Position numbers and translations under genes: made by a program
DNA from: Candidatus Liberimonas magnetica
Lineage (GTDB): Bacteria; Elusimicrobiota; Endomicrobiia; Endomicrobiales; JAFGIL01
DNA length: 64,000 bases
Reading direction: 5' to 3'
NCBI GenBank assembly: GCA_020523885.1
Contig: JAJAPY010000002.1
Span: 236,023-300,022 of the forward strand
Shown here: one piece after another, positions 2-64,000 of the stretch
How the letters are laid out: each line of letters starts with the position of its first letter
Position numbering within the stretch: position 1 is the stretch's first letter
Notes under the pieces: generated by a model
What the model was told of the DNA's origin: nothing
Seen by the model: only the letters and a program-made list of their open reading frames with translations
The model's database searches: none

Positions 2-694
2 ATGCTTTCCAGAGTAGCAAGAGATAGAAATGAAATAGCGGATAGTATCAGCAGAGAAACAACAAGGATGAAGCAAGTTTTGATATTTGCCGCTGTAATA
101 CTTCTTGTATTAGCAATATTTTCAGTAGTACTTGTCCTGTTTTTAGCCAGGTATATAATAAGCAGGTCAGCCCTTCTGAGGGATGGACACAGGCATATCT
201 GGGGGGGGACAACTGCACAAGGCCTCCCGGATTTCGGCAAAAGGCGACTCTCTGAACATAGCCAGGAGATAGAAGAGCTAAGAATTATTGAAGCTGAGGT
301 GGTTGGACGGCAAACAGACCCTCAGGCAGCGGAAGATGTCCTTCAGCCGTTTTTGCAAAGTAAGGATAGCAAAATAAATGCAGAGGCGGCAAGGGCTTTA
401 TTCAAGCATAATCCTACGAGGGCCTTAAATATCTTAGAAGAAATGGAATCAAGCCCGGATAAGCAGACGCGTATTGATGCTATACATGCGCTTGGCGAGA
501 TAAATTCTCCTGAAGCAGTTAAGGTCTTGTTAGATAACTTAAATGAAAATGAAATGGATGTAAAAAAAGAGTTAATCCGTTCTTTGCGAAAGATCAATGA
601 ACTTAAGAAAGCAGAAATACCTGAATACCTTCAGGATAAAATAGAAAAAGCACTGAACGGATTGAAAGATAATGGAAACTGGGTAATAGAATAG
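2..694 (+). CDS. Membrane-anchored HEAT-repeat protein
   Basis: 230-aa ORF. One hydrophobic helix near the N-terminus (VLIFAAVILLVLAIFSVVLVLFLA), then PBS-lyase/HEAT-like repeats (AARALFKHNP, RIDAIHALGEINSPEAVKVLLDNL, VKKELIRSLRKI). The ATG is at nt 2, so the true start could lie outside the window. Confidence 0.55.
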   Translation: MLSRVARDRNEIADSISRETTRMKQVLIFAAVILLVLAIFSVVLVLFLARYIISRSALLRDGHRHIWGGTTAQGLPDFGKRRLSEHSQEIEELRIIEAEVVGRQTDPQAAEDVLQPFLQSKDSKINAEAARALFKHNPTRALNILEEMESSPDKQTRIDAIHALGEINSPEAVKVLLDNLNENEMDVKKELIRSLRKINELKKAEIPEYLQDKIEKALNGLKDNGNWVIE

Positions 695-43085: not shown

Positions 43086-43158
43086 TATACTTTTATAAGT
43101 TAATCCCTTCGGAACTTGTATAGGGTTTTTAGATTCCTTATAAAAATAATAGGCGTTT

Positions 43159-44205: not shown

Positions 44206-44235
44206 TAAGACAAATATTAAACCAGGAGCTATATT

Positions 44236-47889: not shown

Positions 47890-47975
47890 AAAACAATAGA
47901 ATAAATGAAGTTTATAAAAACAAATGGTTTTCTATAGAAGCAGTCCGTCTAAAGTATGATGACGGCCCTTATTAA
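47886..47975 (+). pseudogene. Possible 29-codon remnant of a Nudix-hydrolase-like gene
   Basis: GTG in a GTGA overlap with the E1 beta stop. MKNNRINEVYKNKWFSIEAVRLKYDDGPY resembles the N-terminal strand region of ADP-sugar/GDP-sugar Nudix hydrolases, then stops directly before hairpin + GATTACA copy E. Confidence 0.25.
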
Positions 47976-47985
47976 GGTTATTTAT

Positions 47986-48045
47986 AGACATCCTATATGA
48001 CAAGGACGTCTTGATTCCACAGATTGAAAGAGATTACAAAGATAA
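47986..48045 (+). repeat. Hairpin + GATTACA element, copy E
   Basis: AGACATCCT-atatgaca-AGGACGTCT, then TGATTCCACAGATTGAAAGAGATTACAAAGATAAAAAC. Confidence 0.7.
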
Positions 48046-48096
48046 AAACAAACAAATCTATTCAGGTATAAAGAATAGTATCCCGGGAGGAAACTC

Positions 48097-48606
48097 ATGA
48101 AAAGAGCGGTAATAATAACTGGCCCGAATTTTCAGGATGAGGAGTTCATTTATCCTTACTATCGTCTTCAGGAAGCAGGATTCAAAGTCGATGTGGCCAT
48201 AAAAGACAAGGCTGTTACAAAAGGCAAGTACGGCCTGCCGGTAAAACCTACCATGGACGTCACGGAACTTAAGGAGAAAGATTTTGACCTTGTGGTTTTG
48301 CCCGGAGGGCACGAAGCTCCGGACAGGGTCCGCCAGATAAAAGAAGTGCTTGATTTTGTAAAAGCCATGCACGATAAAGGGAAAGTCGTTTCAACTATAT
48401 GCCACGGCCCCTGGATACTAATATCAGCGGGCATAGTAAAAGGAAGGAAGATAACCGGATACGTGGGTATAAAAGATGATATTATAAATGCGGGGGCGCA
48501 GTATGTAGATTTACCGGTAGTAGTTGACGGGAACATAGTTTCAAGCCCGCACTATAAGTATAACGGCGAGTGGATGAGAGAAACATTAAAAAAATTCGGC
48601 CTATGA
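48097..48606 (+). CDS. DJ-1/PfpI-family protein
   Basis: 169 aa. Nucleophile elbow STICHGPWILISAG and LPGGHEAPD. Confidence 0.85.
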   Translation: MKRAVIITGPNFQDEEFIYPYYRLQEAGFKVDVAIKDKAVTKGKYGLPVKPTMDVTELKEKDFDLVVLPGGHEAPDRVRQIKEVLDFVKAMHDKGKVVSTICHGPWILISAGIVKGRKITGYVGIKDDIINAGAQYVDLPVVVDGNIVSSPHYKYNGEWMRETLKKFGL

Positions 48607-48641
48607 ATCTGCGTAATCGGTTTTGTTAATCTGTGTAATCA
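48607..48641 (-). repeat. GATTACA element, copy F (inverted orientation)
   Basis: AATCTGCGTAATCGGTTTTGTTAATCTGTGTAATCA is the reverse complement of TGATTACACAGATTAACAAAACCGATTACGCAGATT. Confidence 0.6.
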
Positions 48642-48662
48642 AAAATTCCGAAGGGACATTTT

Positions 48663-50378: not shown

Positions 50379-50382
50379 ATTT

Positions 50383-51948: not shown

Positions 51949-52577
51949 ACAAATATAGAGCTGTCTTGTTTGACTTTGACGGTGTTATAGCCAGGACCAT
52001 GGAAGATAATTATAGAGCGTGGAAGGTTGCTCTTAAGGGACATAAGGTGTGCTTTTCCAAAAAGGAATATTTTCTCCTTGAAGGCATGAACGTTAAAAAT
52101 GTAGCACGGAAATTGCTTGGGAAAAAGAATAATAGATCCGGGTTGGTCGATAAAATATGCAAAGCTAAAGATGATTATTATTTAAACAATAATTCGTTCT
52201 CATTGTACAGCGGAGTCAAAACTCTAATATCGCGTCTAAGGAAGAAAGGCTATAAATTGGGGCTGGTCACAGGAGCAAGCAAGGTTCGCCTCGTAAAATC
52301 CGCCGGTGCAGATTTTCTTAAACGCTTTGAAGCAGTGATTACCGGAGATATGGTAAGAAAACCTAAACCGGACCCCCTGCCGTATCTTTTAGCTGCAAAA
52401 GCAATGTCGGTAAACCCTGCCCAATGCCTGGTGGTAGAGAATGCCCCTTTGGGCATTGAATCGGCAAAAAATGCAGGGATGTTCTGTGTAGCCGTGGCTT
52501 CGACTTTAAACAAGAAATATCTAAAGAAGGCGGATATTGTGATAGACAGAATACAAATGCTTGAAGGCCTACTATGA
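51945..52577 (+). CDS. HAD-IA hydrolase (beta-phosphoglucomutase/phosphatase-like)
   Basis: MNKYRAVLFDFDGVIA (DxDG motif), GLVTGAS, KPKPDP, ENAPLGIESAKNAGM. The ATG at 51945 forms an ATGA overlap with the uxaA-like stop. The track start at 51921 is an alternative. Confidence 0.8.
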   Translation: MNKYRAVLFDFDGVIARTMEDNYRAWKVALKGHKVCFSKKEYFLLEGMNVKNVARKLLGKKNNRSGLVDKICKAKDDYYLNNNSFSLYSGVKTLISRLRKKGYKLGLVTGASKVRLVKSAGADFLKRFEAVITGDMVRKPKPDPLPYLLAAKAMSVNPAQCLVVENAPLGIESAKNAGMFCVAVASTLNKKYLKKADIVIDRIQMLEGLL

Positions 52578-52584
52578 AGCAGTT

Positions 52585-52790
52585 TTGTATTTCTCAGTCT
52601 CCGCTATGTTCTTATGATGCCTCACTTTGCGGTAAGACCGCGAGGTATCAAGAGGTATTGTCATCGCGAGGTCGCTTTGGCGACCGTGGCGATCTCGACG
52701 TTGCAACATCATTTTTAGATTGCTTCTCCCGCTTTGCGGTATCGCAATGACAGATAGGGAACCCTGCGGAAGCCACAGAAAATTGCAAGT
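52585..52790. repeat. Cluster of GC-rich hairpin repeats in an AT-rich spacer
   Basis: Contains ATCGC-ga-GGTCGC-tttg-GCGACC-gtg-GCGAT, GATTGCTTCTCCCGCTTTGCGGTATCGCAATGACA and CACTTTGCGGTAAGACCGCGAGGT. Confidence 0.6.
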
Positions 52791-52814
52791 TAAAAATTGT
52801 GATAGGACCTATTA

Positions 52815-54284
52815 ATGCAGCAAAAAATCGACATTGTCTTGATCAATCCGGGTGACAGAAAATATAACTACCAGGCGCTCGGCCTAGACCTGGCTGCCAT
52901 CGAACCTCCTTTCTTGATAGCAGTGACCGCCTCATACCTCAGGAATAAAGGGTTCAACGTTGCAGTAATAGATTCGAATGCTGAAAATATAACACCTGAA
53001 GAGACGGCAATGAAAGTGAAGCGGTTAGACCCGTTTCTTGCAGCAGTCATAGTTTACGGTTCAAACCCTCAGGCATCGACTCAGAACATGACGGTTGCAG
53101 GAAGGATATGTAAAGAAATAAAAAACGATACGCCGTCCAGGGTTATAATAGGCGGGCTGCACCCTTCCGCACTGCCAAAACAGACATTAGAAGAAGAAAC
53201 TGTGGATTTTGTAATTGAAGGCGAAGGGCCTTATACTCTTGAATCTTTGCTTGGAATTTTAAAAACAGGTAAAAGTGATTTCAAAAATATCCCAGGTCTT
53301 TGGTATAAGGAAAACGGTAAAACAAAAAATAACGGCAGGGCTACTCTCATCGGAGACCTTGATGAAGTATTGCCTATAGGGGCGTGGGACCTTCTGCCGA
53401 TGGATAAATATAAGGCGCATAACTGGCATTGTTTTGACGATATTGAGAACAGGAAGCCTTACGGAGCTATCTATACAAGCCTGGGGTGCCCGTTCTCATG
53501 CGTGTTTTGCTGCATTAATGCGCCGTTCGGAAAGCCGGGAATCCGTTACCGCAGCCCTAAATTGGTTGTTGACGAATTATCCCTGTTAAATGAAAAGTAT
53601 GGTGTAAAAAATGTTAAGATAGCGGATGAATTGTTCATTTTTAGTAAAGAGCATTATATGGCTATCGTAGACCTCATCATAAAAAGAGGGCTTAAGCTTA
53701 ACCTGTGGGCGTATGCAAGGATAGATACGATCGACTTTAATTTCTTGAAGAAAATGAAAGAAGCCGGCATAAACTGGCTGGGTATTGGCATAGAATCTGC
53801 CAACGAATCTGTCCGCGACGGGGTTCATAAACAAATGCGCAGAAAAGATATAGTAAACGTAGTAAGGAAAGTGCAGGAGGCAGGCATAAGGGTGGGAGCA
53901 AATTATATTTTTGGATTGCCGGATGACACGATGCAAACCATGCAGGAGACTCTGGACATGGCATTGGAAATAAATTCCGAGTGGGCGAACTTTTCATGTG
54001 CTATGGCATATCCGGGCTCGAAACTTTATGAAATAGCTATTAAAGAAAAATTGAAGCTTCCCAAAGGCTGGCACAACTACTCTCCTTATGCCAAGGATAT
54101 CTTGCCTCTTCCTACCAAGTATTTAAGCCCCGTAGAAGTTCTGCGGTTCAGGGACAATGCATTTAATAAATATTTTGGAAACCCTAATTATTTAAATATG
54201 ATTGAAACTAAATTCGGTACAAGAGTAAAAGAGCATATACTTGCTATGACTAAAACAAAACTCGAACGGATTTTATTGCAATGA
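52815..54284 (+). CDS. B12-binding-domain radical SAM enzyme (class B)
   Basis: 489 aa. N-terminal cobalamin-binding-like Rossmann region and the CxxxCxxC motif in YTSLGCPFSCVFC. Confidence 0.85.
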   Translation: MQQKIDIVLINPGDRKYNYQALGLDLAAIEPPFLIAVTASYLRNKGFNVAVIDSNAENITPEETAMKVKRLDPFLAAVIVYGSNPQASTQNMTVAGRICKEIKNDTPSRVIIGGLHPSALPKQTLEEETVDFVIEGEGPYTLESLLGILKTGKSDFKNIPGLWYKENGKTKNNGRATLIGDLDEVLPIGAWDLLPMDKYKAHNWHCFDDIENRKPYGAIYTSLGCPFSCVFCCINAPFGKPGIRYRSPKLVVDELSLLNEKYGVKNVKIADELFIFSKEHYMAIVDLIIKRGLKLNLWAYARIDTIDFNFLKKMKEAGINWLGIGIESANESVRDGVHKQMRRKDIVNVVRKVQEAGIRVGANYIFGLPDDTMQTMQETLDMALEINSEWANFSCAMAYPGSKLYEIAIKEKLKLPKGWHNYSPYAKDILPLPTKYLSPVEVLRFRDNAFNKYFGNPNYLNMIETKFGTRVKEHILAMTKTKLERILLQ

Positions 54285-55501
54285 ACGATAAAAAGATGTT
54301 GTTAATTTATTACAGGAATAAAGAGACCTTGAGCGAGGTTGGGAATATTTTGATAGACCTGTCTGCAAGCTTAGGCGGTTTTTTTATTGATTATAAAGAC
54401 CTGTATTTTCAAAAAGGCAACAAAGGGACGGAAGGGTATATAGAAAGCTTCGTACAGGACAATAAAATAGACATCGTTATGTTCTGGAGTGAGGCAACCG
54501 GCTTTCATTTTAGCGTAGAATTCTTTGCGAAGTTAAGAAAAAACCTGTACACCGTGATGCTTGTCGGGGATACAGAATACTATTTTGAGGTAAGGGACAG
54601 GTACTATGCACAAGCCATGGACCTGGTAGTTGTTTTTAATAAACCATGCATAAGTTATTATAAATTGATAGGCATAGAAGCGATAGTCTGCTATAGTTTC
54701 TTTGACGGAAAATATTATAAGAAATATCCCGGTCTTAAAAAAGATATGGATGTTTCCTTTGTAGGCCTGCATTCCTGCCACAGCAGGCGCTTAGAGTATC
54801 TTGAATATTTAAAAGCCAACGCTATACCCGCCGTAAGTTATGGGCCGAACTCAGTTAACGGGCCGGTAAGTGCGGAACGTCTGGTAGAAATCATAAACAA
54901 AACTAAGATCAATCTGAATTTTACCGACGCTCTTGATTCAACGCGCCTGACAAGGAATTTAAAGGTACATAAATTGTTAAAGCAGCCAAAAGGACGTATT
55001 ACACAGGCCGCACTCTGCGGCGGGTTTGTGCTGTCCGAGTATGCTTACGGTATAGAAGATACTTTCGAGATCGGCAAAGAGATAGACGTGTTTTACAGCA
55101 AGGACGACCTTTTGGAAAAAGTAAGGCACTACCTGAAAAATTACGATAAAAGGGAAGCTATGGCCCTAAGCGCCTACAAAAAAGCCGTTGAGCTCTACGA
55201 CGGAAATAAAGGCATACCACAGCTTTTTAATAAAATAAAAGAGATGTCTATTAAAAAGCGGCAGGGGCAGAGAAAACTTTACCTGGATAAAGTCTTTATT
55301 GCGAATTATTCCACTTTCAGGGTTTTATTGATTATAAAATTCTTAAAAAGGCTGCAGCTGGGGTATGCCGTAGAAGAATTTTTATTGCTTTTAAAATGCA
55401 GGAAGTTAGACCTGTACCAGGTGCTGGTATTCATAAAAGAAGAAATAATCGACAACATAGCTCCGGTCAGACGATTCCTGAACTATTGTAAGCGGCCATG
55501 A
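54281..55501 (+). CDS. CgeB-like / Glyco_trans_1_2-like putative glycosyltransferase
   Basis: 406 aa. Central DVSFVG...RRLEYLEYL and C-terminal GRITQAALCGGFVLSEY...FEIGKEIDVFYSKDDLLEKVRHYL pattern seen in CgeB-type GT-B C-terminal domains. ATGA overlap with the upstream rSAM gene. Confidence 0.45.
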   Translation: MNDKKMLLIYYRNKETLSEVGNILIDLSASLGGFFIDYKDLYFQKGNKGTEGYIESFVQDNKIDIVMFWSEATGFHFSVEFFAKLRKNLYTVMLVGDTEYYFEVRDRYYAQAMDLVVVFNKPCISYYKLIGIEAIVCYSFFDGKYYKKYPGLKKDMDVSFVGLHSCHSRRLEYLEYLKANAIPAVSYGPNSVNGPVSAERLVEIINKTKINLNFTDALDSTRLTRNLKVHKLLKQPKGRITQAALCGGFVLSEYAYGIEDTFEIGKEIDVFYSKDDLLEKVRHYLKNYDKREAMALSAYKKAVELYDGNKGIPQLFNKIKEMSIKKRQGQRKLYLDKVFIANYSTFRVLLIIKFLKRLQLGYAVEEFLLLLKCRKLDLYQVLVFIKEEIIDNIAPVRRFLNYCKRP

Positions 55502-56940
55502 AGATACTTTTAATATTCCCGAAATGGACACAAGAATACGGAATGATAACTTACTTTGCCAGAAAAGCGTCTGTCTGGCCGCCTTTAAACCTTGCATATC
55601 TTGCAGCTATAGCCGAAGATCAGGGGCACACTGTAAAGATAATAGACGGCGAGGCCGAAGACCTACCGGTTGAAAAGATGGTCGTTGAAGCCGGAAAATT
55701 TGCGCCCGATATTATCGGTATGACCGCTACTACGCCGTTCTTCAGGTTTTCGCTTGAGCTTGCAAAGCGCCTTAAATCAAACTTTAGCAAAGTACCCATA
55801 GTTATCGGCGGGCCGCATATATCGGTCTTGAAAAAGGAAGCTTTTTATGATTGTTTCGATTATGGCTTCATAGGAGAATCCGACGGGTCCTGGCAGCTTT
55901 TTTTAAAATGCATAGAAAATAAAGGAGATATAAGCCAGATAAAGGGGATTCTATACAGGGAAAAAGAAGAAGTGAAGTTTACCGGCCAGCCTGACCTGAT
56001 AGCGGATGTAGATTCAATTCCTGTACCTGCGCGGCATTTGTTAAAACTTAACCGGTATAATATAGGCACGCTGCACGGCACTAAGAATTTTACTACGGTA
56101 ATGACTTCAAGAGGGTGCCCGTTCAAGTGTATCTTCTGCAGTACTGATGTCTTTGGCAAAAAGCTCAGGCAAAGGTCAATAGGCCTTGTAATTGACGAGA
56201 TAACTTCGATAATATCGAAGTTTAACATAAGGCATATTATATTCCTTGATGACACATTAACTATAGACAAAAAGTACATAATGGAGTTATGCGATAATAT
56301 AATAAGCCGAAAGTTGAACATAACGTTCGACTGCGGGACAAGGGCAAACCTTGTAGACGAAGAATTGATAAAAAAAATGGCAGAGGCAGGCCTTATCAGG
56401 ATATCCTTCGGCCTTGAGTCGGTAGATGAAAACATAAGAAGGATAATGAAAAAAGAGGTGCCGCTTGAAAGTTATAAAAAGGCCAATGAAATAACCAATA
56501 GGTACAATATCGAAACGTTAAATTCGTGCATGATAGGCCTCCCGGGAAAAACGAAGGAAACGGTGCGCAACACCCTTCATTTCCTTAGGAGTTCAAAAGA
56601 AATAAAACAGGCCAATATAAGCATTGCCGTGCCGTATCCGGGGACCGAACTTTATGAGATGGCAAAGAAAGGCGAGCACGCCTTGAAACTGGAAACAAAT
56701 GATTTTTCAAAGTTCATCCGGTACGGCGGCGCCGTTATGTCGGTCGGCAGCCTGTCACCGCAGGAGCTTATCAGGATACAGAACGATGCTTTTATAAGCA
56801 TATATCTGGCGCCCTGGAGATGGGTACCGGTCTTAAGGAAATCCGGCGTGATAGGTTTGTTCCTTACGTTTTTGAGGTTCATAAAAAGTTTTCAAAGGGT
56901 GATCTTAAACACGGACGGATTTTTTTGGTTCAAAGACTGA
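55498..56940 (+). CDS. B12-binding-domain radical SAM enzyme (class B), paralogue
   Basis: 480 aa. MTSRGCPFKCIFC cluster motif and an N-terminal B12-like domain. ATGA overlap with the upstream gene. Confidence 0.85.
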   Translation: MKILLIFPKWTQEYGMITYFARKASVWPPLNLAYLAAIAEDQGHTVKIIDGEAEDLPVEKMVVEAGKFAPDIIGMTATTPFFRFSLELAKRLKSNFSKVPIVIGGPHISVLKKEAFYDCFDYGFIGESDGSWQLFLKCIENKGDISQIKGILYREKEEVKFTGQPDLIADVDSIPVPARHLLKLNRYNIGTLHGTKNFTTVMTSRGCPFKCIFCSTDVFGKKLRQRSIGLVIDEITSIISKFNIRHIIFLDDTLTIDKKYIMELCDNIISRKLNITFDCGTRANLVDEELIKKMAEAGLIRISFGLESVDENIRRIMKKEVPLESYKKANEITNRYNIETLNSCMIGLPGKTKETVRNTLHFLRSSKEIKQANISIAVPYPGTELYEMAKKGEHALKLETNDFSKFIRYGGAVMSVGSLSPQELIRIQNDAFISIYLAPWRWVPVLRKSGVIGLFLTFLRFIKSFQRVILNTDGFFWFKD

Positions 56941-56956
56941 TATAGTTGATATTAAT

Positions 56957-57547
56957 TTGGAGGCGGAAATGGAAGAAGAGAAAATAATTAAGATGCTCAG
57001 CGACCTTAAGCACCGCGTATTTCCGAGGCCTTTTGAAAGGTTGGCTGTTTCCGGGAAGAACCTGACTGGTGTTGAAATAGGGGTATATAAAGCAGACCAT
57101 GCCGAGAGCCTTCTTGAGAATCTGGATATAAGACGGCTCTATTTAGTCGATCCCTATAACCTATACGGGGATTATGACGCGGGCAAAGCTCATTATGGTA
57201 TAGACCAGGACCCTCTTGAGCTGGCAAAAAAAGAAGCTGTAAAACGCTTAAGCAGGTTCTCAGATAAAATATCCTGGGTTTACAAGAAATCATCGGACTC
57301 GATGAACGATATACCGGACGGCCTTGATTTCGTTTACCTTGACGGTAATCACGGAGAAGCTTTTGTTAACGAGGAATTAATAAATTTTTACCCTAAAATC
57401 CGCAAAGGCGGTGTTATAGGCGGGCACGATTTTTATAACGGATTTTGCAGGGAACATGACGGAGTAGTCCAGGCAGTCACCAAGTATGCCGTAAAAAACG
57501 GGCTGGTTCTACAGGTTGAATTGCCTGACTGGTGGATAATAAAATAG
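56957..57547 (+). CDS. Class I SAM-dependent methyltransferase (Methyltransf_24-like)
   Basis: 196 aa. GVEIGVYKADHA (motif I-like), DFVYLDGNH, GGVIGGHDF. Start is TTG at 56957 or ATG at 56969. Confidence 0.6.
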   Translation: MEAEMEEEKIIKMLSDLKHRVFPRPFERLAVSGKNLTGVEIGVYKADHAESLLENLDIRRLYLVDPYNLYGDYDAGKAHYGIDQDPLELAKKEAVKRLSRFSDKISWVYKKSSDSMNDIPDGLDFVYLDGNHGEAFVNEELINFYPKIRKGGVIGGHDFYNGFCREHDGVVQAVTKYAVKNGLVLQVELPDWWIIK

Positions 57548-57559
57548 AGGTAAATAATT

Positions 57560-58777
57560 ATGCAGTCAATTTTTGGCGATAAAAATTTGTTATTGCTGTA
57601 TTGTGACGATAACAATCAGAATCATAAATTCCACCTGGATATATTATCCGAATACTTCAAGGAAAGCTTCAGGTTAAATATCGTCAAACAGGTTATTGAT
57701 AACGGGATAGGAAAAACTCAGGATCATATCAGGCACATAATCGATAATAAAGGTATTTCGGTAGTTATCGTATTCCCGTACGTGACCAATTTCGATATCC
57801 CTGTGGAATTTTATGCCTCGCTCAGAAATAAAGTGAACCTGGCCCTCTGGCTGTTCGATGACGACCAGTATTTCAATGCCTATAATAAATACTATGCCCA
57901 GGCTTTCGATACTCTGGCTACGATGGACTACTTAAGCGTATTTGCCTACAAGAACATCGGGATACCTGCAGTGCTTTATTTTGCATCGCATTTAAAAGAA
58001 CGTTACCATCCGGTAAACATAAAAAAGGATATAGATGTATGTTTCGTAGGTGACTGCAAAAAGAACGACCGTATGGAATACATTCAGTATCTCGCGGAAA
58101 ATAAAATAAAAATAAAGGCTTTTGGCAGAGGGTCAAATTACGGTTTCCTCGAATGGGATAAATTCTCGGAGACTTTTTCAAGAAGCAGGATAAACCTTAA
58201 TTTTACAAAGATAGATAAACTTAACTGGCTGAATAAAGATGACCCGCTGTTGAAAAATGCAAGGCAGGCAAAAGCAAGGCCGATAGAAATAGCGCTGACG
58301 GGCTCGTTCTGCCTGTCAGAATATTCTCCGCAATTAAACGCTATGTTTGAAATAGGAAAAGAAATAGACGTTTTCGGAAACAAAAAAGAACTTCTTGAGA
58401 AAGTGAACTATTACCTGTCCAACCCGGAAAAGCTGGATGAGCTAGCAAAAAATTCTTATCAAAGAGCCCTAAACAACTACGAAAGCAGGGTCTATATACC
58501 TCGCGTCTTAAATGAGTTCCAAAAAGCTTTTAAGAGGGATAATATAAATTATTTTGATAAAGATAAAATATATTTAAGCAACAGTTTTAAGTTAAAATCA
58601 ATAATCGGGTTGACTTTTACGGTTTTTGTCCAACTTTCCAGGCTTAAGCTGTTTAATGCTTTGGAAACATTTTTGGGGCTGTTTAAATACGGGCCCGTTT
58701 TATTTTTAAAAGGGTTTTATTTGGGCGCTATAAGGGTATTTGCTAACAGGTGGCACAAATATTTCGCAGCAAATTAA
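57560..58777 (+). CDS. CgeB-like putative glycosyltransferase, paralogue of 54281-55501
   Basis: 405 aa. Colinear with the first copy (DVCFVGDCKKNDRMEYIQYL; ARPIEIALTGSFCLSEY...FEIGKEIDVFGNKKELLEKVNYYL). Confidence 0.45.
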   Translation: MQSIFGDKNLLLLYCDDNNQNHKFHLDILSEYFKESFRLNIVKQVIDNGIGKTQDHIRHIIDNKGISVVIVFPYVTNFDIPVEFYASLRNKVNLALWLFDDDQYFNAYNKYYAQAFDTLATMDYLSVFAYKNIGIPAVLYFASHLKERYHPVNIKKDIDVCFVGDCKKNDRMEYIQYLAENKIKIKAFGRGSNYGFLEWDKFSETFSRSRINLNFTKIDKLNWLNKDDPLLKNARQAKARPIEIALTGSFCLSEYSPQLNAMFEIGKEIDVFGNKKELLEKVNYYLSNPEKLDELAKNSYQRALNNYESRVYIPRVLNEFQKAFKRDNINYFDKDKIYLSNSFKLKSIIGLTFTVFVQLSRLKLFNALETFLGLFKYGPVLFLKGFYLGAIRVFANRWHKYFAAN

Positions 58778-58810
58778 GGTTTAAAAAAATATTATTAAAG
58801 GGTGTAAAAC

Positions 58811-60010
58811 ATGAATAAAATAAGGTATCCGTTCGGAACGATAACGATTACCAAAAAAGCGAAAATACTGGCAAACAAAATACTTAACTCAGGAAGGCTA
58901 TCAGGCGGGAAATATGTAAGGGAATTTGAAAAAAGGTTCGCAGAGCTTGTCGGGACAAAAGAGGCTGTAGCCGTATCTTCCGGCACTGATGCCGACACAC
59001 TGGCTATGGCTGTGCTTTATGATTACGGCGCAAAAAGAGGAGATGAGGTAATAGTGCCTGCCTTGTCATTTGCCGCCACGGGGAATTCCGTGCTGCATGC
59101 GGGGTTTATCCCGAAATTCGTAGATATAAAAAGGCATACCCTTAATATAGATGAAACAAGAATAGAAAAAGCCGTAACCAAAAAAACAAAGGCTATACTG
59201 GCTGTCCACCTTATGGGCAAACCGGCTGAAATGGACACTATAAATAAGATAGCAAAAAAACACGGCCTTCTGGTTATTGAAGATGCCGCTGAAGCTCAAA
59301 GCGCTGTTTATAAAGGGAAAAATATCGGAACTATAGGCGACATGGCTGCTTTCAGCCTGTACATTGCACATATAATTTCAACAATAGAGGGGGGCATAGT
59401 AACCACCAATAATACACGGTATGCCGAAATCTTGAGGTCTCTAAGGGCGCACGGAAGGGCCTGCGACTGTAATATCTGTGTGCTTAACACAACCGGGGCA
59501 GAATGCAAAAAAAGGTTTAAATACAAAACCGATATCCGTTTCATTTTTGAGCGTATAGGTTATTCTGCAAAGATGAACGAGATAGAAGCAGCCGTAGGGC
59601 TTGGCTATCTTGAAATATATCCTGAGATATTCAAAAAAAGAATGGATAATTTTGTTTATTTAAACAAACAGTTTAAACAGTTCAATAATTATTTATTTAC
59701 AATCGTTCAAGAGCCTTACGAAAAAATGGCTCCCTACTGTTTTGCGGTTATACTTAAAGAGGGGGTAAAGTTCACCCGCGATGAGCTGGTCAGTTACCTT
59801 GAAATAAACGGCATAGATACACGGACGCTTTTCCAGTCTATGCCGACCCAGTGCAAAGGGTTTGAATTCTTAGGCTACAAAACCGGCGAATTTCCCGAAG
59901 CAGAATACATCGGTAATAACGGTTTTCATATAGGCACACACCAGGATATCGCAAAACCTCAGATAGATTATTTTATCGCATTGCTGGATAAGTTTTTGAA
60001 GAAAAAGTAA
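58811..60010 (+). CDS. DegT/DnrJ/EryC1-fold PLP/PMP enzyme of the ColD/E1 (sugar 3-dehydratase) type
   Basis: 399 aa. The fold-type I sugar aminotransferase pattern is present, but the Schiff-base Lys position is His (FSLYIAHIISTIEGG). LRSLRAHGRA and FHIGTHQ resemble the ColD blocks IRAHGW and FVGNHQ. Confidence 0.7.
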   Translation: MNKIRYPFGTITITKKAKILANKILNSGRLSGGKYVREFEKRFAELVGTKEAVAVSSGTDADTLAMAVLYDYGAKRGDEVIVPALSFAATGNSVLHAGFIPKFVDIKRHTLNIDETRIEKAVTKKTKAILAVHLMGKPAEMDTINKIAKKHGLLVIEDAAEAQSAVYKGKNIGTIGDMAAFSLYIAHIISTIEGGIVTTNNTRYAEILRSLRAHGRACDCNICVLNTTGAECKKRFKYKTDIRFIFERIGYSAKMNEIEAAVGLGYLEIYPEIFKKRMDNFVYLNKQFKQFNNYLFTIVQEPYEKMAPYCFAVILKEGVKFTRDELVSYLEINGIDTRTLFQSMPTQCKGFEFLGYKTGEFPEAEYIGNNGFHIGTHQDIAKPQIDYFIALLDKFLKKK

Positions 60011-60041
60011 AAAGAATGGAAGGAATGTTGAGTCAAAGAAA

Positions 60042-60073
60042 ATAAGCCAAGTTTGTCAAGTCTGACACGGAAA
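60042..60073 (+). repeat. 32-nt direct repeat, copy 1 (ATAAGCCAAGTTTGTCAAGTCTGACACGGAAA)
   Basis: Matches 62721-62752 at 31 of 32 positions. Confidence 0.8.
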
Positions 60074-60099
60074 TCCGGAAATTGATGTAAAAAAGGTGT

Positions 60100-62050
60100 C
60101 ATTCCCGAAATTTGTTATTGGAAATATGGGACATACTACAATAACAAGTCAAGAGCGTAGCGCACCTGTCCCAGAATTTGGGGCAAAAAATTAGTAATAT
60201 AGCTTTAAAGAACCGATGGTCTTTCACAACAGAAGGAACGAACCTTGAAATCGTTGTGTAAATCCTGCGTTAAAGATAAACTTTACGCTGATTATACTTT
60301 ACCCTAAGTGAAAAGTTCCGGTGAAAGCCCCAAATTGTCCCCTACAGGGTCAAACCCTAACGTTGTCTAAGACGGGGTCATCCACCGGAACATTAAATTG
60401 ATTTATATCAAACGGCGCATTATTTTTAAGCATAACGAAAGCAGTTCGAAGGAATTTTTCAACGAATTTGATTTTAAGTTTAGCTTTAGCAGTTTTTGAA
60501 TTACCCCGTTCTTTCAATTTGTCCTGAAACATTTGCCTGATAATCTTGTTTTTTGCTATGGCAATATTTGCGGCTTGGCATACGGCATAACGAAGCAGGG
60601 AATTCCCTTTTTTAGATATTTTCTCTTTACCCTGGAATTTACCGGATGACATGGTTTCTATATCCAGGCCTGCGAATTTAGTGATTTGCCTGTCACTGAT
60701 AAAGTTGTCAATGTTTATGTTTGATTTAAAAACCGAAGTGGTAAATATGCCATAACCGGGGATAGACAATAATTGACGGTAAACATCGTCTTGCATACAG
60801 AAGGCAAACAGGATTTTATCTATTTCAGCAATATCTTTTTTCGTTCTTTGAATATCACGGGCAATCAATTTGGATTCAAGTATTATTGCTGACGGCATAG
60901 GAAAGCCAATAGATGTTTTAGCGGCTTGCCAGGTTTGGGTCAATCGTAAATATCTTTTACTTTTTTGGCTAACTGACAATGAAAAGATGCTCATAAAATA
61001 CTGAAAATCCATTTTTTTAATGTTGTCACTGGAAGGGCAATGCTCAAGCAAAGTTAAAACATCAGGGTCTTCGGCGTTAGGGAATATATTTCCGAGTTCT
61101 GGAAAATGGCAAGTCCAGATATTATTTTGAATACGTGTTTTAAGCGATGTTTTTGTTTTCATTAACCGTTGCCTTAGAAGCAAATACTTGCGAATGTTTG
61201 AGGCTTGCGTGTTTTCATCACGGTAGAACATGATTTTGCCCTGGCGCATTAAATCTGCGACATTATAGGCATCGCGAGGGTCATTTTTACCCCAGCGGCC
61301 GCCGTCAATAGTTTTACGGTTGCTTTTAGCGGCAACAGAAGATACATAAACCACCAGATAGCCTTTGCTTTTCAGATATTCGGACAAAGGCTTATGATAA
61401 TTAGCTGTTGGTTCAACACCAATGATAACACTTTTAAGGTTATTCATTTCCATTGTTTGCTCGATTTTGTAAGTGAACTTTTGAAAATCTTCAAGATTAT
61501 GATTAACATAGTATTTTCTTAAAAGAATTTCCTTTTCTATGTTATAGAAACAGGCAACTGACGAATTTTTAGCTGCATCAATACCGATAAGCAGATAATC
61601 CTTGTTCTTTTGAATCTCTGGTCTTACTTGACGAAACTGTTCGACTTTGGATATACTTTGCATGAGCCGCCTCCTTGTTAGGTTTGTTCTTGCAAACTTA
61701 CTCTAACACAGGTGGCTCGCTTTTTTCAAGTTCTTAGCTCTTTCTTTTAAAGTTTAAAATGATTTTTCAAGGTCTTTTTAAAATCAATGTCGACTGCTCT
61801 AAGGGGAAATCCTTTCCCCTTAAACCCCTTGGATTACATCTTAAACTACAAAGAAAGACCTAAATTCATTATACAACGTTGTTCGGCATTACGGTATTGG
61901 AATGAATACCGAATTACCTAACTACGTCCCCAAGACCCAAATCTTTTCAGGTGCCAGTTTAATTAAAACAATTACCGATGCTGAATTGGTAACGAAATAA
62001 GGGACAAATAAGCAATTGTTAGCAACAAGGAACCATTACCGGCCCCGCGG
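60100..62050 (-). mobile_element. IS110-family insertion sequence (ends NOT determined; coordinates approximate)
   Basis: DEDD-type transposase gene flanked by 339 nt (3' side) and 417 nt (5' side) of ORF-free, hairpin-rich sequence. No terminal inverted repeats are evident, as expected for this family. Confidence 0.4.
60350..61663 (-). CDS. IS110-family (DEDD/RuvC-like + Transposase_20) transposase/recombinase
   Basis: 437 aa. LLIGIDAAKNSSVA N-terminal DEDD motif, IPGYGIFTTSVF helix-hairpin-helix region, SGKFQGKEKISKKGNSLLRYAVCQAA. Confidence 0.85.
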   Translation of the reverse strand: MQSISKVEQFRQVRPEIQKNKDYLLIGIDAAKNSSVACFYNIEKEILLRKYYVNHNLEDFQKFTYKIEQTMEMNNLKSVIIGVEPTANYHKPLSEYLKSKGYLVVYVSSVAAKSNRKTIDGGRWGKNDPRDAYNVADLMRQGKIMFYRDENTQASNIRKYLLLRQRLMKTKTSLKTRIQNNIWTCHFPELGNIFPNAEDPDVLTLLEHCPSSDNIKKMDFQYFMSIFSLSVSQKSKRYLRLTQTWQAAKTSIGFPMPSAIILESKLIARDIQRTKKDIAEIDKILFAFCMQDDVYRQLLSIPGYGIFTTSVFKSNINIDNFISDRQITKFAGLDIETMSSGKFQGKEKISKKGNSLLRYAVCQAANIAIAKNKIIRQMFQDKLKERGNSKTAKAKLKIKFVEKFLRTAFVMLKNNAPFDINQFNVPVDDPVLDNVRV

Positions 62051-62080
62051 CGGTAATGCAAAATATAAATAGGAGAGGTT

Positions 62081-62668
62081 ATGAAATTCGGATCATGTCT
62101 GGCGGCAGGGTTGTCTATGCTGGTTGTTTTATGCTGTGGAGTTTCTGCAGATACGCACCTGAATATTCAAAACAATTTTGGCTACACAATTGTAGACGTA
62201 GGTAAAGCCATGGATATACCCGCGCTTTCTGACATTACCGGGCAGGGGCTGAATGACTGGGATCAGTTTAACTATAGAATACTGGGACAGCTTATAATCG
62301 ACAAGTCCGATAAGCTTTCCTGGGGGCCTGAAATTGGTTTGCACAGGCTTTATTACTGGGAGGAGAAATACAAACCGTTATCGACATCCAGCCAGAGATG
62401 GCGCTCAGGCGCTGTATGGAGTTTTGAGGCAGGAGCTGTGATGCGTTATGAGCTCGGCCAGAACTACTATTTCTTGACCGGCATTGCGCTTCATAATTTC
62501 CTGAATGATTCAGGGACAACGCTTGGTGTACCGATTGCTCTCGGCCATGAAATAAAAATGTCCCGCTCGTTTGGCGTGCCCCTGGAGTTCCGTATGGACA
62601 TAATATTCGGCAACAGCACCCCGATAGGCATCGGCGGCGGCATAGGCCTTAAGTTTAAGGTAAAATGA
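62081..62668 (+). CDS. Small outer-membrane beta-barrel-like protein (195 aa)
   Basis: Signal peptide MKFGSCLAAGLSMLVVLCCGVSA, alternating aromatic/Gly beta-strand pattern, and a C-terminal GIGLKFKVK. RBS GGAGAGG. Confidence 0.45.
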   Translation: MKFGSCLAAGLSMLVVLCCGVSADTHLNIQNNFGYTIVDVGKAMDIPALSDITGQGLNDWDQFNYRILGQLIIDKSDKLSWGPEIGLHRLYYWEEKYKPLSTSSQRWRSGAVWSFEAGAVMRYELGQNYYFLTGIALHNFLNDSGTTLGVPIALGHEIKMSRSFGVPLEFRMDIIFGNSTPIGIGGGIGLKFKVK

Positions 62669-62720
62669 AATAAAACAGGGTAACCTGGCAAGACAGAAAA
62701 ATGCGGGAATTTCTGCCTGC

Positions 62721-62752
62721 ATAAGTCAAGTTTGTCAAGTCTGACACGGAAA
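62721..62752 (+). repeat. 32-nt direct repeat, copy 2 (ATAAGTCAAGTTTGTCAAGTCTGACACGGAAA)
   Basis: See copy 1. The two copies are 2679 bp apart and bracket the IS110 gene and the small barrel gene. Confidence 0.8.
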
Positions 62753-62760
62753 CACAAAAA

Positions 62761-62927
62761 GTTAGTGAAGTTAGAGAAGCCTGACACCGAAAGCGACAGT
62801 TAGAGAAGCCTGACACCGAAAGCGACACCGAAAGCTATGGGAATTCGGGGGACACAATACTTATTTACGTCTAAGAATGTGACTTATTCAAAAGAAAACG
62901 GTGTCGGAATTCTCTAACTACACTAAC
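62761..62927. repeat. MITE-like unit: 29-bp imperfect terminal inverted repeats enclosing a 29-nt tandem duplication
   Basis: GTTAGTGAAGTTAGAGAAGCCTGACACCG at 62761-89 matches the reverse complement of 62899-927 at 25 of 29 positions. GTTAGAGAAGCCTGACACCGAAAGCGACA is repeated at 62770-98 and 62799-827. Confidence 0.6.
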
Positions 62928-63054
62928 TTTAAAAGTATTTAAATAGAGGCATTCAGAAGAACATAACTAATTTTAGAGTAAAATATGGTAATAGTATTGC
63001 AATGTTAAGCCAAATATATTACAATAGTGTTGTAATGTATTTGGGAGGTTTAAA

Positions 63055-64000
63055 ATGGACACGAATTTGTTAAAAAGGTTAATCGTTGAACATAAAGAAA
63101 AGTTTTTGCTGAAAAGCGGTGAATTAATAGAAAGGGAAGTAAGTGTAGCCGCAAATAAACTGCTGTCTCAAAAAGAAATAATTGTTATTATGGGCGTCAG
63201 GCGCTGCGGGAAATCTTCCCTGATGAGAATGACCGCTCAAAAGCTTTTAGATACCGGAATAAAAAAAGAGAACATCCTGTATGTAAATTTTGAGGATGAA
63301 AGGTTTATTGACTTTGACTATAATGATTTTGACGCGTTGTATGAGTCGTTTCTGGAATTAAATAAACCGAAAGGTAAAAAGTATTTTTTCCTGGATGAAA
63401 TACAAAACATAAAGTCATGGGAGAAGTGGGTCAACAGGCTGTATGAGTTTGAGGATGTAAAGATATTTGTCACCGGTTCTAATACGTCTATGCTAAGTTC
63501 TCATGTTTCATCGGCATTAACCGGCAGAAACAGGCAGATCACGATGTATCCATTCTCTTTTACTGAATTTTTAACTTTGAAGAAAATAGATTTTAGTAAA
63601 AACGACCTTTACAGCAGAAATACAAGGTTAAGCTTAAAGAACAGTTTGAATGAATATATCCAATACGGCGGGTTCCCTGAGGTGGCAAAGAACGGGGATG
63701 CTTCCCTGCTTGAACAATATTTTAAGGACATACTTTACAGAGATGTAATCGCCGGCCACTCAATAAGAAATTCAAAAGAGATTAAAGAACTTACCCTCTA
63801 TCTTGCCTCAAATATCGGGTCAATATACAGTTATAAAAACCTGAAAGAAATGATAGAGGTTAAGAGTTTGAATACAGTGAAAAATTACATAGATATTCTC
63901 GAAGGGGTGTTTTTGTTTTTTAGGCTGGATATTTTTGATTATTCAATTAAACGGCAAATCTTTAACCCGTCAAAAACATATATGGTTGACCATGCGCTTA
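63055..64000 (+). CDS. AAA-family ATPase with DUF4143-type C-terminal region (3' end outside window)
   Basis: ATG after GGGAGG. Walker A GVRRCGKSS, Walker B YFFLDEIQ, FVTGSN, and GGFPE motifs. The frame is open to the end of the window. Confidence 0.7.
   Translation, partial: MDTNLLKRLIVEHKEKFLLKSGELIEREVSVAANKLLSQKEIIVIMGVRRCGKSSLMRMTAQKLLDTGIKKENILYVNFEDERFIDFDYNDFDALYESFLELNKPKGKKYFFLDEIQNIKSWEKWVNRLYEFEDVKIFVTGSNTSMLSSHVSSALTGRNRQITMYPFSFTEFLTLKKIDFSKNDLYSRNTRLSLKNSLNEYIQYGGFPEVAKNGDASLLEQYFKDILYRDVIAGHSIRNSKEIKELTLYLASNIGSIYSYKNLKEMIEVKSLNTVKNYIDILEGVFLFFRLDIFDYSIKRQIFNPSKTYMVDHAL

What the first reader, a model, noticed from the sequence alone, without database searches (positions are those of the whole stretch)
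60011..62080. IS110-family element with 339-nt and 417-nt structured non-coding flanks: candidate bridge-RNA locus
IS110/IS1111 recombinases are guided by an element-encoded bispecific bridge RNA located in the non-coding end (5' of the gene in the IS110 group, 3' in the IS1111 group). Both flanks here are ORF-free and hairpin-rich. The 5' side (61664-62080, minus strand) has AAGGGGAAA-tcc-TTTCCCCTT (~61802-61822), GGTATT-ggaatga-AATACC and CATTACCG-gccccgcg-CGGTAATG. The 3' side (60076-60349) has GGGACA...TGTCCC and a 10-nt inverted pair GCCCCAAATT/AATTTGGGGC ~150 nt apart. The 437-aa recombinase is long for the family. The element boundaries and target are undetermined.
Basis: partly seen in the sequence, partly recalled or inferred. 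Interest (0 to 1): 0.6.

Follow-up and report, generated by a model that had tools for sequence, protein, structure and literature searches.

The report
IS110 element with 3' bridge RNA
This is a 1.74-kb IS110-family insertion sequence whose guide ("bridge") RNA is encoded downstream of the transposase gene and runs into its last codons, not in the upstream flank; it is a new member of a kind of system known since 2024.

Summary
The ORF at 60350-61663 (-) is an IS110-family DEDD/Ser transposase. Comparison with relatives puts the element at window 60133-61875 (1,743 bp), flanked by a GT core on each side. Only about half of each ORF-free flank belongs to it.

The 3' flank plus the last 39 nt of the ORF (60213-60388, -) encodes a structured RNA:
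- It is conserved down to 33% protein identity.
- 20 of 39 base pairs show compensatory changes in the close clade, and 29 of 33 across 95 sequences.
- A covariance model built only from distant relatives hits window 60206-60341 (55.5 bits, E 1e-12).

Its loops match the DNA as in IS621:
- The left target guide equals the left flank. Over 86 pairs, identity is 5.3/7 against 3.7 when shuffled (0 of 5000 shuffles reach it).
- The right target guide GGGGAC pairs with GT-CCC(C).
- The donor guides track the element ends, with four states for the left donor and two for the right.

Joining the ends creates TTGACT-18-TATAAT.

The 5' flank is not the bridge RNA. It holds the -10 box, a subgroup-specific long hairpin and a hairpin that sequesters the ribosome-binding site.

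No RNA or transposition data exist. The window copy has two weakened donor-guide positions.

The parts
60133..61875 (-). Insertion sequence proper, 1,743 bp (LE 61875->61664, tnp, RE 60349->60133). One GT core copy lies on each side, at 61876-61877 and 60131-60132.
   Evidence: Nucleotide homology to L161/L163/L164 and others stops at these points. Three contigs end at or within a few nt of ...GTATGTCCC. Multi-copy relatives break at the equivalent points. Length.
60350..61663 (-). tnp: 437-aa IS110-family DEDD/Ser recombinase
   Evidence: Pfam and NCBIfam NF033542. Invariant D29, E84, D128, D131, S340-G341 in 31 homologues. E84, D128, D131 and the SG motif align with IS621 (8wt6) E60, D102, D105, S241 region.
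60213..60388 (-). Bridge RNA, from closing stem P1 to P1' (176 nt). The 5' 39 nt overlap the last 13 codons of tnp.
   Evidence: Structure counts on A5. Model R1 hit at 60206-60341, 55.5 bits, E 1.2e-12. P1 covariation. Coordinates.
60382..60388 (-). P1 5' strand CCGGUGG (codons P-V-D); pairs with CCAUCGG at 60213-60219
   Evidence: 98% of cells paired, 3 of 7 pairs with compensatory changes. Same closing stem in distant relatives, e.g. CGACGAG/TTCGTCG, CGGCGAG/CTCGCCG, CGGTGAG/CTCACCG.
60360..60367 (-). Left target guide plus core: GACAAC-GU (codons D-N-V), in loop A (60359-60381). Identical to the left-junction top strand ...GAACAAC-GT.
   Evidence: Permutation test on 86 pairs, z about 14, 0/5000.
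60346..60358 (-). P2 hairpin AGGGU-uug-ACCCU; the tnp stop codon UGA spans the P2 loop and the first base of the 3' strand
60337..60342 (-). Right target guide GGGG-AC in loop B (60328-60345); complementary to top strand GT-CCC(C), i.e. core + right target
   Evidence: RTG/RT table: GGGAC/GTCCC in most, with variant pairs GGAGA-AC/GT-TCTCC, GTGGC-AC/GT-GCCAC, GAGAT-AC/GT-ATCT.
60221..60327 (-). Donor-binding domain nested inside the target-binding junction. P3 is CUUUCAC/GUGAAAG, P4 is GGAAC/GUUCC, P5 is CUUAGGGU/AUUUCAAG, and P6 is a hairpin at 60267-60288.
   Evidence: P6: 7 of 8 pairs compensatory in the close clade.
60293..60300 (-). Left donor guide AAAGUAU(A); equals the RE end top strand (T)AGTAT-G. 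This copy has A where relatives have the core G.
   Evidence: LDG/LD matches GGAUG/GGATG 31, GAAUG/GAATG 6, GCAUG/GCATG 1, GUAUU/GTATG 4. Window clade GUAUG/GTATG.
60252..60257 (-). Right donor guide ACAACG; complementary to (C)GT-TGT, i.e. core + LE start. This copy has C where relatives have U one position further 5'.
   Evidence: CAAC/GTTGT 17 and UAAC/GTTAT 40, no exceptions.
60168..60184 (-). 3' GC-rich hairpin of the RE (GCCCC..GGGAC); degenerate in this copy, role unknown
   Evidence: Covarying stem in relatives, GCCCCG..CGGGGA versus GCGGGU..ACCCGA.
60147..60152 (-). -35 box TTGACT in the RE, half of the circle-junction promoter
   Evidence: TTGAC invariant in all RE alignments. All 72 distinct reconstructed junctions give TTGACN-16..18-TATAAT/TATATA.
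61868..61873 (-). -10 box TATAAT at the LE terminus, the other half of the junction promoter
61735..61863 (-). Long imperfect hairpin in the LE (apex AAGGGGAAAggaUUUCCCCUU at 61801-61821); present only in the window subgroup; function unknown; not part of the bridge RNA
   Evidence: LE z = -7.19; L163 z = -3.41. Other relatives have an LE of 92-123 nt without it.
61664..61730 (-). Conserved LE 3' module. It holds promoter-like TTGAAA-18-TAGAGT with TG (61729-61700), and a hairpin pairing GAGCCACCU (61710-61718) with AGGCGGCUC (61664-61672) that occludes the Shine-Dalgarno region.
   Evidence: Conserved columns in A2. Promoter scan. The hairpin is recovered in WIN, L163 and L082, and variant pairs GGGCAACCU/AGGUUGCCC (L083) and GUGCC.../...GGCAC (L082) were read by eye from the alignment.
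61878..61931 (-). Host target. Once GT-CCC (60128-60132) is rejoined, this is an imperfect palindrome of about 60 bp: GGGGACGTAGTTAGGTAATTCGGTATT-cattcc-AATACCGTAATGCCGAACAAC. The IS sits in its right arm.
   Evidence: The reconstructed empty site folds at -28.5 kcal/mol and the palindrome extends through GTCCC. L161 is inserted at ATACCTAATTACCTAACTAC-GT-CCCT, close to the reverse complement of the other arm (by-eye comparison, about 24 of 26).

Best explanation
The locus is one copy of an IS110-family insertion sequence (window 60133-61875, minus strand).

**RNA.** It encodes a DEDD/Ser recombinase and, downstream of it, a bridge RNA of about 176 nt (60213-60388). The RNA is closed by stem P1.
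- A three-way junction (P1, P2, P3) is the target-binding loop. Its 5' strand carries the left target guide, 8 nt plus core GU, identical to the top strand of the left target and so pairing with the bottom strand. Its 3' strand carries the right target guide GGGG-AC, pairing with top strand GT-CCC(C).
- Branch P3-P5 carries an internal loop that is the donor-binding loop. Its 5' strand (A)AGUAUG equals the RE end plus the core G. Its 3' strand (U)ACAAC(G) is complementary to GT-TGTA at the LE start.

**Reaction (inferred by analogy with IS621).** Excision joins RE-GT-LE into a circle. This creates the promoter TTGACT-18-TATAAT, which would drive tnp and the downstream RNA. The RNA-recombinase complex then pairs circle junction and target and exchanges strands at the GT core. 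The preferred site is N8-GT-CCC(C). In this window it is the arm of a host palindrome between a DegT aminotransferase gene and a 195-aa ORF.

**Shown here in silico:** element ends, RNA structure with covariation, guide-DNA covariation, junction promoter, catalytic residues.

**Inferred by analogy with IS621/ISEc21:** that the RNA is made, binds the recombinase, and directs recombination; the exact 5' and 3' ends of the RNA; cleavage at GT.

This particular copy may be weakened, because one position in each donor guide is mismatched and the 3' hairpin is degenerate.
For: - **Protein:**
- **Ends:**
- **Structure:** 89.8% of cells paired against 33-52% for slid partners, 20/39 pairs compensatory. 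Across 95 distinct relatives, 92.1% paired and 29/33 pairs compensatory.
- **Independent covariance model:** built from relatives at 33-37% protein identity, it hits window 60206-60341 at 55.5 bits, E 1.2e-12, full length, and 98 of 100 sources have a hit on the tnp strand.
- **LTG = LT:** mean identity over 7 nt is 5.29 against 3.72 shuffled, 0/5000 shuffles; the signal is confined to positions -1 to -8.
- **RTG/RT:** four alternative matched pairs.
- **LDG/LD:** four matched states. **RDG/RD:** two states, no exception.
- **Junction promoter:** present in 72/72 distinct reconstructed junctions.
- **Target:** the host palindrome continues through GT-CCC. In a Nitrospirota genome, copies that are 99.7-99.9% identical differ right after GTCC (T or C), as expected if that base is target DNA.
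- **Guide order:** the bottom-strand match lies 5' of the top-strand match, the same as IS621 and ISEc21 (PMC11208160, PMC11187229).
Against: - There are no expression data, so RNA ends, processing and protein binding are unknown.
- No empty site and no second copy were found for this genome. The choice of GT as core, rather than ends at ...GTCCC, therefore rests on guide overlap, the palindrome and one variable flank base.
- Rfam has no matching family.
- Folding energy of the 3' non-coding part alone is unremarkable (z = -0.31).
- In this copy the LTG matches only 5 nt + GT. The RTG has a G.A mismatch at the 4th RT base. The LDG has A at the core G position. The RDG loses its outer pair. The model score is the lowest among the relatives at 58% protein identity or more (55.5 against 60-83 bits; L172 and the 40% clade score lower).
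- Some related insertions match their LTG poorly (L081, L083).
- Related sequences are not independent, so shuffle statistics overstate significance somewhat.
Confidence: 0.85

Rival explanations
1. The bridge RNA lies in the 5' flank (LE), as in IS621-type IS110 elements. On this view the strongly folding LE hairpins are its binding loops, and the 3' conservation is something else.
For: The LE folds far better than chance (z = -7.19). The LE hairpin 61801-61821 and its surroundings are identical in WIN/L161 and L163/L164, while neighbouring LE sequence diverges. Most IS110-group elements carry the RNA upstream (PMC11208160).
Against: The long hairpin exists only in the window subgroup. Relatives at 40-78% protein identity have an LE of 92-123 nt without it. 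The parts of the LE conserved across relatives are the terminal TATAAT and an SD-occluding hairpin next to a promoter-like site. No stretch of the LE was seen to track the flanks, whereas the 3' RNA does. The model search of the window finds nothing in the LE.
Confidence: 0.03
2. The conserved 3' region is a cis-acting element of another kind: a structured 3' UTR or stability element, an antisense or regulatory RNA, or DNA sites bound by the recombinase. On this view the matches to flanks and ends reflect shared ancestry or target preference set by the protein.
For: No expression data exist. The RT is nearly invariant (CCC), as a protein-read motif could be. The terminal 40 bp of the RE must in any case hold recombinase sites. 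The matched stretches are short (5-8 nt).
Against: Helices are kept by compensatory changes, which argues for function as RNA. Unpaired loop positions change in step with DNA outside the element (LT at 8 positions; RT in four variant groups) and with both element ends. The strand rule and the overlap at a 2-nt core reproduce those of IS621 (PMC11208160).
Confidence: 0.07
3. The element is a decaying, immobile relic. The RNA locus is recognisable but no longer functional in this genome.
For: Only a single copy is present in the 64-kb window and on the source contig record. There is a cluster of substitutions in the donor loop relative to the 89%-identical L161 (GUAUAAUCAG against GUAUGCUGUG). 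It has lost the LDG core G and the outer RDG pair, its 3' hairpin is degenerate, and its model score is the lowest among its close relatives.
Against: The ORF is intact with all catalytic residues. Both ends, both promoter halves and helices P1-P6 are intact. An independent assembly of the same sample breaks inside the IS, as happens when several copies exist.
Confidence: 0.3

Closest known systems
IS621 bridge RNA system (IS110 group; Durrant et al. 2024, PMC11208160; structures 8wt6-8wt9)
   Same: - DEDD + Ser recombinase; the C-terminal domain aligns at E 1e-13.
[quoted passage not shown]
- Both guides overlap a 2-nt core.
- Circular intermediate with a junction promoter.
- Insertion into a palindromic repeat.
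   Different: - The RNA is downstream of tnp rather than upstream.
- The core is GT rather than CT.
- The donor loop is nested in a branch of the target-binding three-way junction, instead of the two loops lying in tandem.
- The RT is short and nearly fixed (CCC/CCCC).
- The recombinase is 437 aa against 326 aa.
- The RNA 5' part overlaps coding sequence.
ISEc21 seekRNA (IS110 family; Siddiquee et al. 2024, PMC11187229)
   Same: Order of matches: the segment matching the bottom strand lies 5' of the segment matching the top strand. There are no long subterminal inverted repeats.
   Different: ISEc21 has an upstream NCR, a 358-aa transposase and a 58-74-nt seekRNA that was defined experimentally. 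Here the NCR is downstream and nothing has been tested experimentally.
IS1111 group (ISEc11, ISPa11, ISKpn4; PMC11187229, PMC11208160)
   Same: The guide RNA is encoded in the RE, downstream of tnp. The LE is short in most relatives. Multi-loop placement of donor-binding nucleotides was noted for many IS1111 elements.
   Different: - IS1111 transposases are 330-350 aa.
- They have 7-17-bp subterminal inverted repeats. None above chance is found here.
- Their top-strand match is 5' of the bottom-strand match, the opposite of the order here.
IS110-family members with a downstream NCR noted but not characterised in PMC11187229 (Fig. 1b 'green' group)
   Same: IS110-type transposase with the long NCR on the 3' side.
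   Different: I could not establish whether the present clade is that group, because no ISfinder names or sequences are available here.

Membership tests
IS110 family (sensu lato) | Transposase with DEDD_Tnp_IS110 (PF01548) and Transposase_20 (PF02371) domains | tested here: met
   (4e-23, 4.6e-16); NF033542 at 174.9 bits against a cut-off of 140.
IS110 family (sensu lato) | Catalytic D-E-D-D and the Ser of the SG motif | tested here: met
   D29, E84, D128, D131, S340, G341 are invariant in 31 homologues. E84/D128/D131 and the SG region align with IS621. The first D was not in the printed alignment.
IS110 family (sensu lato) | Site-specific insertion without terminal inverted repeats, with a short core repeated at both junctions | tested here: met
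   GT at both junctions. Left flanks follow the LTG. No terminal IR above chance.
IS110 family (sensu lato) | Circular intermediate whose RE-LE junction forms a promoter | tested here: inconclusive
   The promoter TTGACT-18-TATAAT forms in silico, and does so in 72/72 relatives. The circle itself was not observed.
Bridge RNA / seekRNA systems | Element-encoded structured ncRNA conserved among orthologues | tested here: met
Bridge RNA / seekRNA systems | Loop segments that pair with both strands of the target around a core | tested here: met
   LTG and RTG, overlapping at GU/AC.
Bridge RNA / seekRNA systems | Loop segments that pair with both ends of the element (donor) | tested here: met
   LDG and RDG tables. 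In the window copy each guide has one mismatch.
Bridge RNA / seekRNA systems | The RNA is expressed, binds the recombinase and is required for recombination | not testable with these tools
   Needs RNA-seq/RIP and a recombination assay.
IS1111 group | Subterminal inverted repeats of 7-17 bp | tested here: not met
   The longest inverted match between the 60-nt ends is 6 nt, at unequal distances from the ends, which is common in shuffles.
IS1111 group | Transposase of 330-350 aa (PMC11187229) | tested here: not met
   437 aa.
IS1111 group | Guide RNA downstream of tnp | tested here: met
IS1111 group | Top-strand-complementary segment lies 5' of the bottom-strand-complementary segment | tested here: not met
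   The LTG (pairs with the bottom strand) is 5' and the RTG (pairs with the top strand) is 3'.
IS110 group sensu stricto (IS621/ISEc21 type) | Long LE carrying the guide RNA upstream of tnp | tested here: not met
   The LE of relatives is 92-123 nt and holds only a promoter half and an SD hairpin. The RNA model hits the RE.
Rfam families | Match to a curated covariance model | tested here: not met
   No hit below E = 1 in 59500-63500.

The most novel reading that the evidence does not exclude
The most novel reading not excluded is as follows. This clade uses a compact, nested bridge RNA in which the donor loop sits inside the target-binding three-way junction. The RNA's 5' third, including the programmable left target guide, is overprinted on the last 13 codons of the recombinase gene. 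Retargeting therefore changes two C-terminal residues (the 'xx' in ...DPVLxxVRA). Published surveys that searched only non-coding ends would have truncated or missed this RNA. The wider clade has hundreds of hits in metagenomes and MAGs. It targets N8-GT-CCC, so almost all specificity sits in one 8-nt guide.
Probability: 0.45. Interest if true: 0.55.

Novelty: new member of a known kind. Interest (0 to 1): 0.42.

Why it matters
It adds a well-delimited, apparently abundant clade to the RNA-guided IS110 recombinases. Its combination of features falls between the two textbook groups: IS110-type guide order, no long inverted repeats, a 437-aa enzyme, but a 3'-encoded RNA.

It gives concrete guide, core and end assignments that can be tested directly.

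It also shows that a bridge RNA can run into the recombinase coding sequence. This matters for annotation pipelines that search only non-coding ends, and for anyone trimming such elements for engineering.

For this genome it is simply one IS copy, inserted in a palindrome at the edge of a polysaccharide-biosynthesis cluster.

Tried and rejected
- **Rfam scan** of 59500-63500 at E <= 10: only two chance-level hits.
- **Other copies in the window:** none.
- **First boundary model:** I initially placed the right end after ...GTCCC with core C/CC and the left end at (A/C)C|GTTG. I replaced this with core GT once the LTG and RTG were seen to overlap at GU/AC, the host palindrome was seen to run through GTCCC, and a flank base after GTCC was seen to vary among near-identical copies.
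- **Intrinsic terminator for the RNA:** none by the scan. The 3' hairpin has no U tract.
- **RT guide in the conserved CUAUAUUACU stretch:** it resembles the right flank in some copies, but I saw no consistent relation across elements by eye.
- **Empty site:** exact look-up of the two neighbouring proteins returned only contigs of the same sample that break inside the IS.
- **ISPpu9/Ssr9** as a characterised 3' RNA: its bridge RNA is upstream and Ssr9 is a hitchhiker, so it is not a model for this element.
- **Long subterminal inverted repeats:** none.
- **Separate promoter for the RNA inside the tnp 3' end:** only a weak match (TTCAAA-18-TAAAAT); left open.
- **A first P1 script** crashed on short loci and was rerun.
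Full report
**Observation**

The window carries a 437-aa ORF at 60350-61663 on the minus strand. It has the two IS110-family Pfam domains and passes the NCBIfam model 'IS110 family RNA-guided transposase' (174.9 bits, cut-off 140). An identical protein is on record from an Elusimicrobia MAG contig of 368,698 bp.

In an alignment of 31 homologues, D29, E84, D128, D131 and S340-G341 are invariant. The E, the last two D and the SG region align with IS621 (8wt6). The window has no second copy, and Rfam gives nothing better than E = 1.5.

**Ends of the element**

Nucleotide similarity to close relatives fetched from public assemblies runs only from about 61897/61882 to 60117-60128. All relatives share a left motif GTTGTATAAT and a right motif TAGTATGTCCC. 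Beyond these the flanks are unrelated, and three contigs end at or within a few nt of GTCCC.

Distant relatives (33-37% protein identity) keep TAG[G/T/A]ATGTCCC about 300-330 nt after the stop codon. Multi-copy genomes show identity breaking at the equivalent positions. Examples are Desulfosarcina variabilis with three copies and a Nitrospirota MAG with three copies.

Taking GT as the core (reasons below), the element is window 60133-61875, 1,743 bp. GT lies at 61876-61877 and at 60131-60132. So 212 nt of the 417-nt 5' flank and 217 nt of the 339-nt 3' flank belong to the IS.

**A conserved RNA on the 3' side**

The 3' region aligns well even at 59% protein identity, and helices change on both sides together. 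Extending the alignment 40 nt into the ORF revealed a closing stem P1. In the window, CCGGUGG at 60382-60388 pairs with CCAUCGG at 60213-60219.

On 17 sequences, my six-helix structure has 89.8% of cells paired, against 33-52% when the 3' partners are slid. Twenty of 39 pairs carry changes on both sides.

As an independent test I built a covariance model only from 38 distant relatives, none from the window's clade. It hits the window once with significance, at 60206-60341 on the minus strand, full length, 55.5 bits, E 1.2e-12. Ninety-eight of 100 sources have a hit on the tnp strand, downstream of tnp in nearly all. On the resulting 95 distinct sequences, 92.1% of cells pair and 29 of 33 pairs show compensatory change. 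P1 also covaries in the distant clade, for example CGACGAG/TTCGTCG, CGGCGAG/CTCGCCG and CGGTGAG/CTCACCG.

Folding energy alone is not informative. The z-score is -0.31 for the non-coding part and -2.26 for 60210-60390.

**Guides**

The RNA reads P1 - loop A - P2 hairpin - loop B - P3[P4, P5, loop, P6 hairpin, loop] - P1'.

- *Left target guide (LTG).* The last 8 nt of loop A, followed by GU, are the same as the 8 nt of host DNA that precede the left-junction GT. Examples:
  - window: GACAAC-GU against GAACAAC-GT
  - L169: CAGAACC against CAGAACC
  - L110: GGACACUAC against GGACACTAC
  - L116: CAUAGAC against CATAGAC
  - L074: UUUACCAGC against TTTACCAGC

  Over 86 distinct pairs, mean identity in the last 7 nt is 5.29 against 3.72 for shuffled pairings (sd 0.11; 0 of 5000 shuffles reach it). 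The excess is confined to positions -1 to -8.
- *Right target guide (RTG).* Loop B carries GGGG-AC, complementary to GT-CCCC. Groups with a different guide have a matching different right flank: GGAGA-AC with GT-TCTCC, GTGGC-AC with GT-GCCAC, and GAGAT-AC with GT-ATCT.
- *Left donor guide (LDG).* In the inner loop, the 5' strand G[N]AUG equals the RE end G[N]AT-G in four states: G 31, A 6, C 1, plus U in the window clade and the Nitrospirota group.
- *Right donor guide (RDG).* The 3' strand is CAAC where the LE starts GT-TGT (17 cases) and UAAC where it starts GT-TAT (40 cases), without exception.

[quoted passage not shown] The order, bottom-strand match 5' of top-strand match, is that of IS110-type ISEc21 and the reverse of IS1111 elements (PMC11187229).

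**Why GT is the core**

- The LTG ends in GU and the RTG ends in AC, so the two target pairings overlap exactly there. The donor guides likewise meet at G/AC.
- With GT-CCC restored to the host, the window's insertion site becomes the right arm of an imperfect palindrome: GGGGACGT...cattcc...AACGTCCC (-28.5 kcal/mol).
- The 89%-identical element L161 sits at ATACCTAATTACCTAACTAC-GT-CCCT, which is close to the reverse complement of the other arm by eye (about 24 of 26).
- In the Nitrospirota genome, the base after GTCC differs (T/C/C) among copies that are otherwise 99.7-99.9% identical.

This remains an inference until an empty site or a circle junction is seen.

**Junction promoter**

Joining RE-GT-LE gives TTGACT, 18 nt, TATAAT in the window. 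It gives TTGACN-16..18-TATAAT/TATATA in all 72 distinct reconstructed junctions. This supports both the ends and a circular intermediate that would transcribe tnp and the RNA behind it.

**Overlap with the ORF**

Proteins of the window's clade carry a 12-14-aa tail (VPVDDPVLxxVRA). The distant clade and IS621 lack it.

Those codons are P1 5' (P-V-D), loop A, the LTG (the two variable residues plus V) and the 5' strand of P2. The stop codon spans the P2 loop and the first base of the 3' strand. In the distant clade the same RNA starts about 30 nt after the stop. L172 and L083 stop earlier, inside loop A. The tail therefore looks like read-through into the RNA rather than a needed peptide.

The published survey searched non-coding ends only (PMC11208160, methods). 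I found no description of such an overlap in the papers read.

**The 5' flank**

The LE conserved among relatives consists of two parts. One is the terminal TATAAT. The other is a 3' module with a promoter-like TTGAAA-18-TAGAGT and a hairpin that pairs GAGCCACCU with the SD-proximal AGGCGGCUC. Variant pairs of this hairpin in L083 and L082 were read by eye from the alignment.

This makes the LE fold at z = -7.19 (L163 z = -3.41). Its role is unknown, and nothing links it to guide function.

GGTATT..AATACC is the centre of the target palindrome. CATTACCG..CGGTAATG lies upstream of the 195-aa ORF.

**State of this copy**

The ORF, the ends, the promoter halves and all helices are intact. Several features are weaker than in close relatives:
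- The LDG has A at the core-G position.
- The RDG has lost its outer pair.
- The 3' hairpin is degenerate.
- The LTG matches 5 nt + GT, and the RTG has one mismatch.
- The model score is the lowest among the relatives at 58% protein identity or more.

An independent assembly of the same sample breaks inside the IS. That is expected if related copies coexist.

**Classification and novelty**

The element is a member of the IS110 family and of the bridge/seekRNA kind of system. It does not fit the IS1111 group: it has no subterminal inverted repeats, the enzyme is 437 aa rather than 330-350 aa, and the guide order is opposite. It does not fit the classical IS110 arrangement either, because the RNA is downstream.

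PMC11187229 mentions IS110-type elements with a 3' NCR, and PMC11208160 mentions multi-loop donor binding. The separate features are therefore not unheard of. The nested topology combined with the CDS overlap is the only part I could not find described.

I rate it a new member of a known kind, of moderate interest.

Noticed in passing
window 60042-60073 and 62721-62752; also 62758-62930: A 32-nt direct repeat, ATAAGYCAAGTTTGTCAAGTCTGACACGGAAA (31/32), lies in two intergenic regions outside the IS. Degenerate ...GAAGCCTGACACCGAAA copies lie at 62761-62835. A 32-nt inverted pair (88%) at 62758-62789 / 62899-62930 looks MITE-like.
   Followed up: no
L094 4377-5348 (also L096, L028/L029, L142, L148, L100, L093, L050, L013): In several distant relatives the bridge-RNA model hit lies more than 1 kb downstream of the tnp stop. 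In L094 a 323-aa ORF with Toprim-like motifs, as read by eye (EAPIDALS, FDNDPAG), sits between tnp and the RNA. It is split in L028. It may be a passenger gene inside the IS.
   Followed up: partly
window 61735-61863: A long imperfect hairpin of about 128 nt is inserted in the LE of the window subgroup only (WIN, L161, L163, L164). The apex region is 100% conserved while neighbouring LE sequence diverges. LE z = -7.19. Function unknown.
   Followed up: partly
L116 1591-2533: Desulfosarcina variabilis carries a 943-bp 3' partial copy with its own RNA (model hit 2283-2426) about 330 bp upstream of a full copy.
   Followed up: no
window 60123-60152: In the integrated state the RE -35 TTGACT plus 18 nt plus host CATATT gives an outward-facing promoter-like match (9/12). 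It points antisense into the 3' end of the DegT gene.
   Followed up: no
L177 (ends at window 60157) and L178 (starts inside the tnp 3' end): A Logan assembly of run SRR16235686 is 100% identical to the window over L177 (L178 was not aligned). It breaks on both sides of the conserved RNA region, which suggests several related IS copies in that sample.
   Followed up: partly
window 62081-62668 (+): A 195-aa ORF with a hydrophobic, signal-peptide-like N-terminus (by eye) has no Pfam or NCBIfam match. Upstream genes (about 42000-60010) look like a polysaccharide-biosynthesis cluster: glycosyltransferases, radical SAM, methyltransferase, DegT. An AAA_14/DUF4143 ATPase gene starts near 63053.
   Followed up: no
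L163 2344-2448: An inverted partial copy of the RE end (79% identical to window 60117-60219) lies at the end of this contig, downstream of a full element.
   Followed up: no
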